A DNA stretch of 51,531 nt from contig PMIX01000238.1 in assembly GCA_003158395.1 (NCBI GenBank), positions 1-51,531 on the forward strand, read 5' to 3'. The notes beneath the pieces are model-generated. The model saw only the letters and a list, made by a program, of their open reading frames with translations. It was not told the origin of the DNA and searched no databases. A program made the translations under genes and the position numbers. This DNA is from Myxococcales bacterium. GTDB lineage: Bacteria > Myxococcota_A > Polyangia > Fen-1088. Shown here one piece after another: positions 16,518 to 20,466 of this stretch (position 1 is its first letter; every line of letters begins with the position of its first letter).

Positions 16518-18569
16518 ATGCCGACGCCCACTGACACAAACCCTCGGTCGCCTGCTTCCGCCCGGTGGCAGATTGTCTCGCCCAGCCAACTGCGCCCCAC
16601 CCTGTTCGTCCGGCGGAAATACTGGGCTCAGCGCTTCGGCGTGGCCCCGGTCCTGCCCCTGTCGCGTGCCGAGATGGGCCGGCTCGGCTGGGAATGTTGC
16701 GACGTGATCCTGGTGACCGGCGACGCCTACGTCGATCACCCGAGCTTCGGCGCGGCGTTGATCGGCCGCGTGCTGGAGGAACAGGGCTTCCGCGTGGGAA
16801 TCATCGCCCAACCCGACTGGCGTTCGGCAGGCGCGTTCGCATGCCTCGGCCGCCCTGCCCTCATGTTTGGCGTGACCGCCGGGGCCATGGACTCGATGGT
16901 GAACCTGTTCACCGCGGAGAAGCGTGTGCGCAGCGACGACGCGTATTCGCCCGGTGGGAAGTCTGGTCTACGGCCGGAGCGCGCTGTCACGGTCTACGCC
17001 CAACGCTGCCGGGAAGCCTTTCCCGACGTGCCCATTGTCATCGGCGGCATCGAGGCCAGTCTGCGCCGGGTCGCCCACTATGACTACTGGTCGGACAAAG
17101 TACGGCGATCCGTGCTCCTCGATTCCAAGGCTGACCTGCTCGTCTACGGCAACGGCGAGCGCCAGGTAGTCGAGATCGCCCACCGTCTCGCCGCAGGCGA
17201 GCCAGTCGCGGCGATCGCCGACGTACGTGGCACAGCGCTTGCGCTGTCAGCCAGGGCGCCAGGGCCCGACCGGGGGGTTGAGATCGACTGCACCACCATT
17301 GGCGCCAGGCGCGCAGCCAAGACCAGCGGCCAAGTTATCCGCTTGCCTAGCTTCGAAGCTGTGGCCGAAGATCCGGTTCTCTACGCCCACGCCTCACGCA
17401 TCATCCATCTCGAATCCAACCCAGGCAACGCGCGCGCCCTGGTGCAACGCCACGGCGCCCGCGATCTGTGGGTGAACCCTCCCGCTCTGCCGCTTGCCAC
17501 AGCAGAGTTGGACGCTATCTACGATCTGCCGTTTTCACGCCGACCCCACCCAAGCTACGCCAGGTCGCGCATTCCAGCGTACGAGATGATCAAGTGCTCG
17601 ATCGCGATCATGCGCGGATGCTTCGGCGGCTGCACCTTCTGCTCGCTCACCGAACACGAAGGTCGCATCATCCAGAGTCGTTCGCCCGAGTCGGTTTTGC
17701 GCGAAATTGCGTCGGTGCGCGAGAAAACGCCGGGGTTCACAGGCGTGATTTCCGACTTGGGTGGACCCACGGCCAACATGTATCGGCTGGCCTGCAAGAG
17801 CCCCTGGCTGGAGGCAGCGTGCCGGCGTCTCTCGTGCCTTCACCCAGGCATTTGTCCCAATCTCGACACCGACCACGGCCCACTCATTGACCTTTACCGC
17901 CGGGCGCGCCAGGCAGAGGGCGTGAAGAAGATCACCATCGGATCGGGCGTGCGCTACGACTTGGCACTGTCCTCGCCCGCCTACATCGAAGAACTGGTCA
18001 AACACCATGTGGGTGGCTACCTGAAGGTCGCGCCTGAGCACAGCGAGCCGGGCCCGCTGGCCAAAATGTGCAAGCCCGGCATCGCCGCGTTCGACGAGTT
18101 CCACGCGCTGTTTGAACGCTTCTCGCACCAGGCGGGCAAGGAGCAGTATCTCATTCCCTATTTCATTGCCGCGCACCCGGGCACCACCCTGCGGGACATG
18201 GTGGCGCTCGCGCTCTGGTGCAAACGCAACGGCTTTCGGCCTGACCAGGTGCAGGCCTTCTTGCCCACGCCCATGGCCACTGCCACGGCCATGTATCACA
18301 CCGGCAAGAACCCCTTGCGCCCCCTACGCCGGCGCCGTGGCGAAGAAGTCTGCGTGGCCCGCGGCGAGAAGGAGCGTCGGCTGCACAAGGCCTTTCTGCG
18401 CTACCACGATCCCGAAAACTGGCCACTGCTTCGCGCCGCCCTTCTCCATTTGGGCCGGCCAGACCTCATCGGCCACGGCCGAGACTGCCTGGTTCCACCT
18501 GAGCGCCATCAGGCCCGCGGGGTTCGTCCCGCCCCGGACAGGCCGCGAAGGATGCTCCGTCGGCACTGA
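16518..18569 (+). CDS. ygiQ: YgiQ-family radical SAM protein (UPF0313)
   Basis: The N-terminus [44 protein letters not shown] is near-identical in pattern to E. coli YgiQ. Radical-SAM cluster motif CFGGCTFC. The track ORF start 15798 is an antisense over-extension. ATG 16518 is favoured (alternative ATG 16413). Confidence 0.85.
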
Positions 18570-18852
18570 TCGCGCCTGTACTTGCTCGACCCGGCGACCG
18601 TGGGTCGCATTGTTTCTAGGCCATGGCACTGACAGCCACAGCCACCGCCAAGAAGCGCGAGGCGTTCTCCAGATACAGACTTCCCCTATCGCAGTGCGCG
18701 GGTCTCTTTCCAAATCCGTCGGAGATAGCTACTCTATTGGCATGCTTTTCACCCCGCCTACACGACCCTCCTCTCTTGAATGCGAGCTTCCTGTCGACAA
18801 GCAACCCCCGACGTGGTTGCCCGCATCAGGTCTGTTGGCGGACGGCCCAAAG

Positions 18853-20466
18853 ATGCTTTGTCAGCTCACAGTGGCAGCGGGCCTATGCGGGTTGATGCTG
18901 GTCACCGGGGCGTGTGCCAAGACGACCACGGGCGCGCCCACAACGGGCGGATCGACGGCAACCAAGCCGGCCGGAGGGAACACGAGCAGCGGAGGTTCCT
19001 CGGGAAACGGCGGCTCCACAGGCTCCACAAGCTCCTCGTCCGTCGCTGGGAACGACGGCTCAGCGACCAGCGGCGGTTCCACCGCCACGGCGGGATCGAC
19101 GGCAACCGGCGGGTCCACCTCTGCGGGCGGCTCTCCCAGCACCGGCGGCACGCAACCGGCGGGCGGCGCGGGTGCCAGCGGGGGAAACACCCGAACCGGC
19201 GGCACGACTGGCACCGGAGGCGGCAGCACGACACCCAGCGGGGGCAACACCGGAGCCGGCGGCACGACGGCCGGCGGAGGCAACGCTGGAGCTGGCGGCA
19301 CGGCTGGAATCGGTGGTGCCGTGGCGGGAGCGAGTGGCACTGCAGTAAGTTACAAACTTCCACCGCCCGACCGGTGCCACGATCAAGACTTTATCCCCTA
19401 CGACTACAACGCCAAGACGGGGTGTCTGGACGGGGATACGACCACCGACTGTGGCGGAAAATGCACGGTCGCCAACGCCTGCACGGACCCTCCCGCCAGC
19501 AAGCCTCACGCCGACTACACCTTCATGTGTCAACGGAACCAGTTGTTCAGCCCGGAGATGGAACAAGCCGCGGCCGACGACGGAAACACCGGTTTCCACT
19601 ACGCGGTTGTCGGACACGACGTAGGGGATCCAGGAGGGATCGACGGCAACGCTCAAAGTGCCTGCTGCCAATGCTACCAGCTGGTCTATGCCTATCCGAG
19701 CCCCAGCAACGACCGGCAGGTGCAGGTCAATCCAGACAATCCCAATCCTCCAGCCTCGGCGATCCCGGTTCCGCCTCCGCTCATCGCGCAGGCCTTCAAC
19801 ACGGGGGCCACACCGACGACTTTCGACGTGTACATGCCCGCCGGCGGGTTGGGGGCCAACAACGCCTGTGCCCAGGTCGCCGGAGCCAAGTCGCAGTCGG
19901 GTCTGTACATGTACACCAGCTACCCAGCCGATGGTCAGCCAAGCCAGGGTGGCGTGAAGCCTGCGAGCCTCTATCCGGAGTGCAAGACTGCCGTTAGTTG
20001 GGTTACCGAGGCGACCCTCACCTCTCCGGCCTGCGTGCAGAGAACCGCCAACGCCTGCGATCAGATCGCTTCGAATATCCCAGGCCTGACCCAGCAGTCT
20101 GAGAGTGGCTGCATCAAGGCGAACACCATCGATACCTTCTATCACCTTAACTGGTCAGTCTATGTGGCGAAGGTCGAGTGCCCCGAGAATCTCACCCGCG
20201 TAACTGGCTGCAAGCTGGCACCCCAGGGGTTGCCCGCCGTGAAGAAGGACGTGACGACCGCAGCGCAGGCAGCCAAGGATCCGGATTTTCGGTCCAAGAC
20301 CGGCAGCTCCAACAACATGTACGAAACCACCACCATGGAGGACTGCTGCCGTCCTTCCTGCTCGTCCATCACCTGGACCACCCAAAAGGGGCTCGTGACG
20401 GACCCCCAATACCGGGTTTTCTACCTCTGCAATGCCAATGGCGTGCCCTACACGCAGGCACAGTAG
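18853..20466 (+). CDS. Secreted lipoprotein with Gly/Ser/Thr linker and GH45-like (endoglucanase V / DPBB) domain
   Basis: Lipobox LMLVTGAC, then a ~140-aa G/S/T linker. The domain has GH45 hallmark strings: ACCQCYQLVY (cf. CCACYELTF), TFDVYMPAGGLGANNAC (cf. HFDLNIPGGGVGIFDGC), KVECPENLTRVTGC (cf. QVQCPAELVARTGC) and C-terminal EDCCRPSC...YLCNANG (cf. N-terminal YWDCCKPSC...FSCNANF). Start is ATG 18853 or ATG 18742. Confidence 0.65.
   Translation: MLCQLTVAAGLCGLMLVTGACAKTTTGAPTTGGSTATKPAGGNTSSGGSSGNGGSTGSTSSSSVAGNDGSATSGGSTATAGSTATGGSTSAGGSPSTGGTQPAGGAGASGGNTRTGGTTGTGGGSTTPSGGNTGAGGTTAGGGNAGAGGTAGIGGAVAGASGTAVSYKLPPPDRCHDQDFIPYDYNAKTGCLDGDTTTDCGGKCTVANACTDPPASKPHADYTFMCQRNQLFSPEMEQAAADDGNTGFHYAVVGHDVGDPGGIDGNAQSACCQCYQLVYAYPSPSNDRQVQVNPDNPNPPASAIPVPPPLIAQAFNTGATPTTFDVYMPAGGLGANNACAQVAGAKSQSGLYMYTSYPADGQPSQGGVKPASLYPECKTAVSWVTEATLTSPACVQRTANACDQIASNIPGLTQQSESGCIKANTIDTFYHLNWSVYVAKVECPENLTRVTGCKLAPQGLPAVKKDVTTAAQAAKDPDFRSKTGSSNNMYETTTMEDCCRPSCSSITWTTQKGLVTDPQYRVFYLCNANGVPYTQAQ

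What the first reader, a model, noticed from the sequence alone, without database searches (positions are those of the whole stretch)
19348..20466. GH45-like domain that appears circularly permuted relative to fungal endoglucanase V
Compared with my recollection of Humicola insolens EGV, the strings line up in order for most of the domain. YNAKTGC matches FDAKSGC, ACCQCYQLVY matches CCACYELTF, TFDVYMPAGGLGANNAC matches HFDLNIPGGGVGIFDGC, FYHLNW matches YWRFDW, and KVECPENLTRVTGC matches QVQCPAELVARTGC. The segment that opens EGV (YWDCCKPSCGW...FSCNANF, carrying the catalytic-base Asp) is found here at the extreme C-terminus (MEDCCRPSCSS...YLCNANG, ~20330-20450). The N-terminus of this domain starts where EGV residue ~35 would be. 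Both putative catalytic Asp residues (EDCC and FDV) are retained. Bacterial GH45s are uncommon, and a permuted one would be notable.
Basis: partly seen in the sequence, partly recalled or inferred. Interest (0 to 1): 0.6.

Follow-up and report, generated by a model that had tools for sequence, protein, structure and literature searches.

The report
Circularly permuted GH45 cellulase lipoprotein
This gene of an uncultured peat-soil myxobacterium encodes a lipid-anchored relative of fungal family-45 cellulases in which the first segment, carrying one of the two catalytic aspartates, has moved to the end of the domain; hundreds of unannotated proteins share this rearrangement, and I found no paper describing it.

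Summary

**The gene.** Window 18853-20466 (+) encodes a 537-aa protein. It has a lipoprotein signal, a 143-aa Gly/Thr/Ser/Ala linker and a 373-aa Cys-rich domain.

**Homology to GH45.**
- The domain itself has no Pfam, NCBIfam or PDB sequence hit.
- A profile of its family matches only GH45 structures (E 3e-16).
- Foldseek on a confident AlphaFold model (pLDDT 91.7) also finds only GH45.

**Evidence for permutation.**
- Matched stretches are in permuted order. The GH45 N-terminal segment (DCCxPSC...C) is at the C-terminus.
- Moving the tail back to the front in silico makes the profile align end to end with canonical bacterial GH45. The hhalign score rises from 92 to 137 and E falls to 4e-20.
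- Tail cysteines are lost only together with their predicted partners in the body.

**Conservation.** Both catalytic aspartates are nearly invariant (D333 in 218/218, D161 in 209/212). The conserved Tyr8 is an invariant Met.

**Distribution.** There are at least 542 proteins and 209 genome loci, in Myxococcota and Fibrobacterota. Divergent members lie on a giant-virus contig. Some members carry CBM2 or CBM3.

**Status.** Activity is inferred, not shown. The scan has already noted this permuted family on other DNA.

The parts
18853..20466 (+). Whole gene: 537-aa lipoprotein with a permuted GH45 domain. The start at ATG 18853 is my choice; a database copy starts at Met15 (18895).
   Evidence: ORF list; start candidates; translation. 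N-termini of homologues show standard lipoprotein signals.
18853..18915 (+). Signal peptide ending in a lipobox-like LVTGAC. The putative lipidated residue is Cys21 (18913-18915).
   Evidence: Read directly from the sequence. Homologues have ...FSFAC/AG and ...FPLAC/AG type signals. Cleavage and lipidation are inferred.
18916..19344 (+). Low-complexity linker of 143 aa (G 49, T 30, S 23, A 22).
   Evidence: Composition count. The same design occurs in the canonical GH45 and in the two paralogues of the same genome.
19345..19458 (+). N-terminal Cys-rich extension of the domain (residues 1-38; C11, C27, C36, C40). It is not part of the GH45 core.
   Evidence: Absent from the short divergent members that still keep C46, C62 and all tail Cys. 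It has no counterpart in the de-permuted alignment.
19459..20220 (+). GH45 body (residues 39-292). It corresponds to canonical GH45 positions about 42-220 and includes CCQCY (107-111), FDVYMPAGGLGANNAC (160-175) and VECPENLTRVTGC (277-289).
   Evidence: hhalign 107-289 against canonical 81-220: probability 97.8, E 1e-12. Full collinear alignment after de-permutation. HMMER against PDB GH45.
19825..19827 (+). Asp161, equivalent to the GH45 catalytic acid (EGV Asp121).
   Evidence: Aligned. D in 209 of 212 family rows. Role of Asp121 from PMC5829257 and PMC6509783.
20221..20316 (+). Ordered connector (residues 293-324) joining the old C-terminus to the old N-terminus.
   Evidence: Conserved positions Q294, G295, V303 and F315. 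pLDDT 91-97 with a short helix at 306-311. No counterpart in canonical GH45.
20317..20463 (+). Relocated GH45 N-terminal segment (residues 325-373): YETTTMEDCCRPSC...FYLCNANG.
   Evidence: hhalign of the tail alone against canonical 13-39: probability 95.5, E 1.4e-8. HMMER stretch against GH45 9-34. BLASTP 329-339 against 14-24 of the same genome's canonical GH45. Strands 326-331 and 352-357 in the model.
20341..20343 (+). Asp333, equivalent to the GH45 subfamily-A catalytic base (EGV Asp10).
   Evidence: Aligned. D in 218 of 218 family rows. Role of Asp10 from PMC5829257 and PMC6509783.

Best explanation
The gene encodes a lipid-anchored protein held away from the membrane on a long flexible Gly/Thr/Ser/Ala tether. 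Its globular domain is a natural circular permutant of a GH45 subfamily-A-type endoglucanase.

**What moved.** The first roughly 40 residues of a canonical GH45 now follow the rest of the domain, joined to it by an ordered connector of about 32 residues. Those residues comprise the first strand with the catalytic-base Asp in the DCCxPSC motif and the next strand with its Cys. The new N-terminus lies in the loop just before the 'SxC' cysteine.

**Shown here.**
- Homology to GH45.
- The permuted order.
- Near-invariance of both catalytic Asp.
- Cysteine pairs that tie the tail to the body.
- A confident single-domain model.

**Inferred.**
- The tail strand re-enters the barrel in the position of the canonical first strand. 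The Asp161 (acid) / Asp333 (base) pair is therefore rebuilt.
- The protein cleaves beta-1,4-glucans such as cellulose by the inverting GH45 mechanism.
- It is lipidated and displayed outside the cytoplasm.
- It arose by tandem duplication of a bacterial GH45 followed by loss of both outer ends.
For: **Homology to GH45**
- Family profile A2 against PDB: 10 hits, all GH45, E 2.7e-16 to 6e-14.
- Foldseek on the AF2 model (pLDDT 91.7, pTM 0.91) gives only two significant PDB hits, both GH45 (5gly E 7.5e-5, 1l8f E 5.8e-4).
- Divergent family members pass the Pfam PF02015 cut-off.

**Permuted order**
- HMMER stretches: profile 408-441 to GH45 9-34, 198-264 to 78-137, and 353-379 to 178-204.
- BLASTP against the canonical GH45 of the same genome gives the same order.
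- hhalign in native order: body E 1e-12, plus a separate tail hit.
- The de-permuted profile gives one alignment, 1-300 to 6-220 of 220, probability 99.3, E 3.6e-20, score 137 against 92.
- All 163 relatives with both motifs have DCC after FD.

**Tail bound to body**
- Cysteine pairs are lost strictly together: 107-339 in 2 sequences, 175-334 in 2, 62-362 in 1 and 108-289 in 11.
- All 3 sequences lacking C335 also lack C46.

**Catalysis plausible**
- D333 in 218/218 rows and D161 in 209/212.
- Their roles in GH45 come from PMC5829257 and PMC6509783.

**Cellulose as target**
- P0140 carries two CBM3 stretches plus fn3 ahead of the domain.
- P0129 carries CBM2 plus three Big_7 domains.
- The family occurs in Fibrobacterota as well as Polyangia.
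Against: - The single sequence has no Pfam, NCBIfam or PDB sequence hit, even at E 10.
- Foldseek TM-scores are modest (0.46-0.51 on the target) because of the permutation and about 160 extra residues.
- I had no model coordinates. The position of the tail strand, the Asp-Asp distance and the disulfides were not measured, and no permutation-aware structural alignment was run.
- The conserved active-site Tyr8 of GH45 is an invariant Met here (218/220).
- The stabilising Asp114 has no counterpart.
- The HFD motif reads TFD. Substrate or mechanism may therefore differ.
- The neighbouring genes are housekeeping genes, not a polysaccharide-utilisation cluster.
- No activity data exist.
Confidence: 0.8

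Rival explanations
1. It is a permuted GH45-fold glycanase, but its substrate is not cellulose. Candidates are xyloglucan, glucomannan, mixed-linkage glucan, chitin or a microbial or protist cell-wall glycan. The altered -1 subsite would account for the different specificity.
For: - Tyr8 is an invariant Met, Asp114 is absent and HFD reads TFD.
- In beetle GH45s, changes at such positions go with a shift to xyloglucan or with loss of activity (PMC6509783).
- Divergent members lie on a giant-virus contig, where host-wall attack is plausible.
- There is no cellulolytic gene cluster around the gene.
Against: - Two independent fusions to crystalline-cellulose binding modules, CBM3 and CBM2.
- The family is found in cellulolytic lineages.
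- The same genome also keeps a canonical GH45 with the same tether design. That fits a cellulase set, but equally fits division of labour between the two.
Confidence: 0.2
2. It is a non-hydrolytic, expansin- or loosenin-like wall-loosening protein that keeps the GH45/DPBB fold.
For: - Expansins and loosenins share the fold and the HFD-type Asp (PMC5829257).
- Tyr8 is missing.
Against: - Expansins and GH45 subfamily C lack the Asp10 base.
- Here the base Asp is invariant in 218/218 rows, and the whole DCCxPSC motif is kept.
- The top matches are subfamily-A enzymes, not expansins.
Confidence: 0.08
3. The topology is normal. The C-terminal segment is the start of a truncated second GH45 copy, an assembly artefact or a frameshift product.
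For: A tandem duplicate is the expected evolutionary intermediate. The window comes from a fragmented MAG of 461 contigs.
Against: - The body lacks any N-terminal DCC strand of its own.
- The tail is present at 99-100% coverage in hundreds of independent assemblies and in three paralogues of this genome.
- No relative has the motif at both ends.
- Tail cysteines co-vary with body cysteines.
- AF2 gives one compact domain with tail pLDDT about 90.
Confidence: 0.02

Closest known systems
GH45 subfamily A endoglucanases: Humicola insolens EGV/Cel45A (PDB 2ENG, 3ENG, 4ENG, 1HD5), Melanocarpus albomyces Cel45A/20K (1OA7, 1L8F), Thielavia terrestris GH45 (5GLX, 5GLY)
   Same: - They are the only PDB proteins matched by sequence profile and by fold.
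- Shared motifs: DCCxPSC with the base Asp, CCxCY, FD...GGG.G...C with the acid Asp, and CPxxL...TGC.
- Cysteine positions correspond to six of the disulfides I recall for EGV. That recollection was not checked here.
   Different: - The order of segments is permuted: the N-terminal roughly 40 residues lie at the C-terminus behind a 32-residue connector.
- The domain is 373 aa rather than about 210. It has an extra N-terminal Cys-rich extension and longer loops and helical inserts.
- Tyr8 is Met, there is no Asp114, and HFD reads TFD.
- It is a lipoprotein on a Gly/Thr/Ser/Ala tether instead of carrying a CBM1.
Canonical bacterial GH45 of the same genome (G000 contig C145:978-1622; Pfam PF02015 positions 1-212, 112 bits) and of related Polyangia genomes
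   Same: - Same lipoprotein signal and Gly/Ser/Thr tether.
- 34% identity over the CxxC-to-GGxGANNAC core.
- A shared long loop of the type 'P.S.AI....(M/L)I.Q', which is shorter in the fungal enzymes.
- This is the likely kind of ancestor.
   Different: Normal segment order, about 215 aa, Tyr-Trp before the base Asp, and no C108-C289 pair.
Other natural circular permutants among glycoside hydrolases and CBMs: Fibrobacter succinogenes GH16 1,3-1,4-beta-glucanase and GH70 glucansucrases relative to GH13 (both from general knowledge), and the CBM families linked by permutation (Montanier et al. 2010, cited in PMC7410926)
   Same: The same evolutionary mechanism, in which fold and active site are kept while the chain termini move.
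   Different: Different folds and families. In the held library I found no paper describing permutation in GH45 or its double-psi beta-barrel relatives.

Membership tests
GH45 (Pfam PF02015, CAZy family 45) | Significant match of the protein itself to the curated family profile | tested here: not met
   P0001 and P0002 have no Pfam family at E <= 10. NCBIfam gives none and phmmer against PDB gives none.
GH45 (Pfam PF02015, CAZy family 45) | Homology to GH45 shown at family (profile) level | tested here: met
   - A2 profile against PDB: only GH45, E 2.7e-16.
- hhalign against canonical bacterial GH45: E 1e-12 in native order and 3.6e-20 when de-permuted.
- Divergent members P0228, P0236, P0227 and P0173 exceed the Pfam cut-off.
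GH45 (Pfam PF02015, CAZy family 45) | GH45-type six-stranded double-psi beta-barrel fold | tested here: met
   The AF2 model (pLDDT 91.7, pTM 0.91) has only two significant Foldseek PDB hits, GH45 5gly and 1l8f. Probability is 1.00 and TM on the target 0.51 and 0.46. No coordinates were available for a permutation-aware superposition.
GH45 subfamily A | Catalytic acid Asp (EGV Asp121) in the xFD motif | tested here: met
   D161 aligned. D in 209/212 rows.
GH45 subfamily A | Catalytic base Asp (EGV Asp10) in the DCCxPSC motif | tested here: met
   D333 aligned. D in 218/218 rows. It lies at the C-terminus rather than the N-terminus.
GH45 subfamily A | Conserved active-site Tyr8 and stabilising Asp114 | tested here: not met
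   The Tyr8 position is Met331 (218/220 rows). The 'dl' insertion carrying Asp114 is absent (alignment).
GH45 subfamily A | Canonical N-to-C order of segments | tested here: not met
   Permuted order in every comparison.
GH45 (enzyme activity) | Inverting endo-beta-1,4-glucanase activity | not testable with these tools
   There is only indirect support: conserved Asp pair and CBM2/CBM3 fusions.
Expansin / loosenin (DPBB domain 1) | HFD-type Asp present but no Asp10-type base; top similarity to expansins or GH45 subfamily C | tested here: not met
   The base Asp is invariant. No expansin or subfamily-C structure appears among the PDB hits.

The most novel reading that the evidence does not exclude
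The permuted proteins form a distinct, ancient GH45 subfamily that the curated profiles tested here (Pfam, NCBIfam) do not detect in its main Myxococcota/Fibrobacterota branch. It spans bacteria (Myxococcota, Fibrobacterota), giant viruses and probably eukaryote-like genomes. Its re-wired -1 subsite (Tyr8 to Met, no Asp114) would give it a substrate range or mechanism different from that of classical GH45 cellulases.
Probability: 0.35. Interest if true: 0.65.

Novelty: new variant of a known kind. Interest (0 to 1): 0.55.

Why it matters
GH45 enzymes are small, disulfide-rich cellulases. They are used industrially and studied as the enzymatic cousins of expansins.

- **A natural test of the fold.** A natural permutant shows that the barrel and its Asp-Asp machinery tolerate moving the strand that carries the catalytic base.
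- **An unnamed family gets a name.** The result explains at least 542 'hypothetical' proteins that Pfam and NCBIfam leave unnamed. Surveys based on such profiles are therefore likely to undercount GH45-type enzymes in soil and peat Myxococcota and Fibrobacterota.
- **New material for engineering.** The new chain termini and the altered -1 subsite could be used for enzyme engineering and for tracing the evolution of GH45.

Tried and rejected
- **Single-sequence searches.** Pfam, NCBIfam and phmmer against PDB found nothing for the window protein.
- **Shallow profile.** A profile of 39 close homologues gave only marginal GH45 hits (E 0.03). A more diverse alignment was needed.
- **De-permuted single sequences against Pfam.** Artificially de-permuted or wrongly cut sequences did not change HMMER scores. 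HMMER adds up stretches in any order, so this test cannot discriminate. I replaced it with hhalign on de-permuted profiles.
- **N-terminal 112 residues alone.** hhalign of this piece against canonical GH45 gave nothing. That region aligns only within the full de-permuted profile.
- **BFVD viral fold library.** No match.
- **Naming distant members.** The cluster look-up returned no informative names.
- **Genomic context.** The neighbours are a radical SAM YgiQ-type protein, a spermidine-synthase-like membrane protein, tgt, queA and an iron/B12 ABC system. There is no CAZyme cluster.
Rejected in favour of C46.
- **Literature.** Searches for a described permuted GH45 or DPBB glycanase found none.

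Full report
**The gene**

The long ORF 18112..20466 (+) most plausibly starts at ATG 18853. That gives a 537-aa protein made of three parts:
- a signal peptide ending in LVTGAC, with Cys21 as the likely lipidated residue;
- a 143-aa linker composed almost entirely of G, T, S and A;
- a 373-aa Cys-rich domain encoded by 19345-20463.

Close homologues start with textbook lipoprotein signals such as ...FSFAC/AG. A database copy of this protein is called from Met15, so the exact start is uncertain. A terminator-like hairpin at 18587-18608 follows the upstream radical-SAM gene. The neighbours are housekeeping genes. The gene therefore stands alone.

**Checking the observation**

On its own the sequence finds nothing in Pfam or NCBIfam, even at E 10, and nothing in PDB.

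At family level the picture reverses.
- The domain has at least 542 relatives covering 99-100% of its length. They are all unnamed or 'hypothetical' and have no precomputed Pfam domain.
- It has 141 representative clusters at 50% identity.
- A profile of 33 diverse members hits ten distinct PDB sequences. All are GH45 (1OA7, 1L8F, 1HD5, 2ENG/3ENG/4ENG, 5GLX/5GLY, 6MVI, 5H4U), with E from 2.7e-16 to 6e-14.
- Divergent members (P0228, P0236, P0227, P0173) exceed Pfam's GH45 gathering score. For P0228 the match covers profile positions 40-213, which means the first roughly 40 profile positions are missing from its front.
- An AlphaFold2 model built on 39 homologues is confident: pLDDT 91.7, pTM 0.91 and no disordered stretch.
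- Its only significant Foldseek hits in the PDB are GH45 enzymes: 5GLY at E 7.5e-5 and 1L8F at E 5.8e-4, with TM on the target 0.51 and 0.46.

**Is it really permuted?** Five independent lines say yes.

1. *Order of matched stretches.* HMMER matches family profile 408-441 to GH45 residues 9-34, profile 198-264 to residues 78-137, and profile 353-379 to residues 178-204.
2. *Comparison within the same genome.* The window's own genome holds one canonical GH45 (contig C145, Pfam positions 1-212, 112 bits). BLASTP of the window domain against it gives 107-181 to 86-155 (E 2e-7) and 329-339 to 14-24.
3. *Profile-profile comparison.* I compared the family with seven canonical bacterial GH45s taken from related genomes.
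   - In native order, residues 107-289 align to canonical 81-220 (probability 97.8, E 1e-12, score 92).
   - Separately, the tail 333-370 aligns to canonical 13-41. The tail alone gives probability 95.5 and E 1.4e-8.
   - I then moved the tail (325-373) in front of residues 39-292 in silico. The result was a single collinear alignment covering canonical 6-220 of 220, with probability 99.3, E 3.6e-20 and score 137.
   - The same manipulation on single sequences against Pfam was uninformative, because HMMER sums stretches in any order.
4. *Consistency across relatives.* All 163 relatives that carry both motifs have DCC after FD. None has the motif at both ends.
5. *Cysteine co-variation.* Among 154 full-length rows, cysteines are lost strictly in pairs.
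   - 108 with 289 in 11 sequences, 107 with 339 in 2, 175 with 334 in 2, and 62 with 362 in 1.
   - All three sequences lacking C335 also lack C46.
   - Four of these five pairs join the tail to the body.
   - They are the pairs expected if the tail takes the place of the canonical first segment. From memory, and not verified here, the EGV disulfides are 11-135, 16-86, 31-56, 12-47, 87-199 and 89-189.

The alternative of a truncated second domain does not fit lines 4 and 5, nor the single-domain model.

**Anatomy** (domain numbering, residue 1 = 19345)
- Residues 1-38 are an extra Cys-rich extension. It is absent from the short divergent members.
- Residues 39-292 are the GH45 body.
- Residues 293-324 are a conserved, confidently modelled connector.
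- Residues 325-373 are the relocated first segment.
- The breakpoint lies in the loop between canonical positions about 41 and 42.

The equivalent of the GH45 'SGC' cysteine is C46 rather than C27.

**Function**

In GH45 subfamily A, Asp121 is the proton donor and Asp10 the base of an inverting mechanism (PMC5829257 and PMC6509783). Their counterparts here are D161 (209 of 212 rows) and D333 (218 of 218 rows). Expansins and subfamily C lack the base, so a purely non-catalytic role is unlikely.

Two relatives carry cellulose-binding modules in front of the domain:
- P0140 has two CBM3 stretches plus fn3;
- P0129 has CBM2 plus three Big_7 domains.

Against a simple 'cellulase' label, Tyr8 is an invariant Met, Asp114 has no counterpart and HFD reads TFD. 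In beetle GH45s, changes at such sites accompany shifts of substrate or loss of activity. I therefore rate homology plus permutation as very likely. I rate beta-1,4-glucanase activity as likely but unproven.

**Distribution and origin**
- A scan of one genome per species found 209 loci. The 80 listed are MAGs of Myxococcota (Polyangia/Polyangiaceae from fens, soils and anoxic springs) and Fibrobacterota (Chitinispirillaceae, Fibrobacter), plus some with less precise labels. The nearest is a fen Myxococcales MAG at 92% identity.
- In an even sample of the phylum, 4 of 401 genomes have the permuted form and 6 of 401 a canonical GH45. Three genomes have both.
- The window's genome has three permuted paralogues, which fall in three different clades.
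- In a quick tree the Fibrobacterota sequences form one clade nested among Myxococcota sequences. This suggests a single transfer, with moderate support.
- The canonical bacterial GH45s share with the permuted family a long loop of the type 'P.S.AI....(M/L)I.Q' that is shorter in the fungal enzymes. A bacterial GH45 is the likely ancestor. The usual route would be tandem duplication followed by trimming, which is inferred. No intermediate was found.

**Novelty**

Full-text searches found no description of a permuted GH45 or of a permuted double-psi-barrel glycanase. Natural permutation is known in other glycoside hydrolases, so this is a new variant of a known kind.

This scan has already noted the same permuted family on other DNA. 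Those notes agree with my result. I did not use them as evidence.

Noticed in passing
L100 6001-6996 (ENA ERZ3460575 NODE_2820, 33.7 kb, 22% GC): A divergent permuted GH45 (P0263/P0227, 331 aa) passes the Pfam GH45 cut-off. It sits on a giant-virus contig beside an NCLDV major capsid protein, TBP, a glycosyltransferase and an intein-bearing ribonucleotide reductase.
   Followed up: partly
L098 and L099 (ENA ERZ28496113 ctg23272, 588 kb, 46% GC): Another short permuted member (P0228, 318 aa) occurs twice, 200 kb apart, inside an 8.3-kb segmental duplication of 98.8% identity. The contig has sparse, short gene calls and no other Pfam hits. It may be eukaryotic or a very large virus.
   Followed up: partly
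G000 contig C145:978-1622 (L004 972-2240, minus strand): The same genome encodes a canonical, non-permuted GH45 built the same way: lipoprotein signal, long Gly/Ser/Thr tether, catalytic domain.
   Followed up: yes
G000 contigs C160:16155-17198 (L002) and C326:11019-12074 (L003): There are two further permuted paralogues in the same genome, at 50% and 48% identity. Both are lipoproteins with tethers, and they fall in different clades of the family tree.
   Followed up: yes
L045-L060 (Fibrobacterota MAG loci): The Fibrobacterota copies (53-56% identical to the window's) form one clade nested among Myxococcota sequences in a quick tree. This suggests one inter-phylum transfer.
   Followed up: partly
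G114 contig C59:14231-16472 (L008/L009): A genome of another family in the phylum has two divergently oriented permuted copies side by side. One of them lies in a 1064-aa open frame.
   Followed up: no
window 18853-18895: The start codon is uncertain. The database copy of this protein (P0003, 523 aa) is called from Met15, which would remove most of the signal peptide. TTG codons at 18817 and 18835 are also in frame.
   Followed up: partly
window 18587-18608: A terminator-like hairpin followed by a T-run lies just after the YgiQ-type radical-SAM gene. This sets the cellulase gene apart as its own transcription unit.
   Followed up: no
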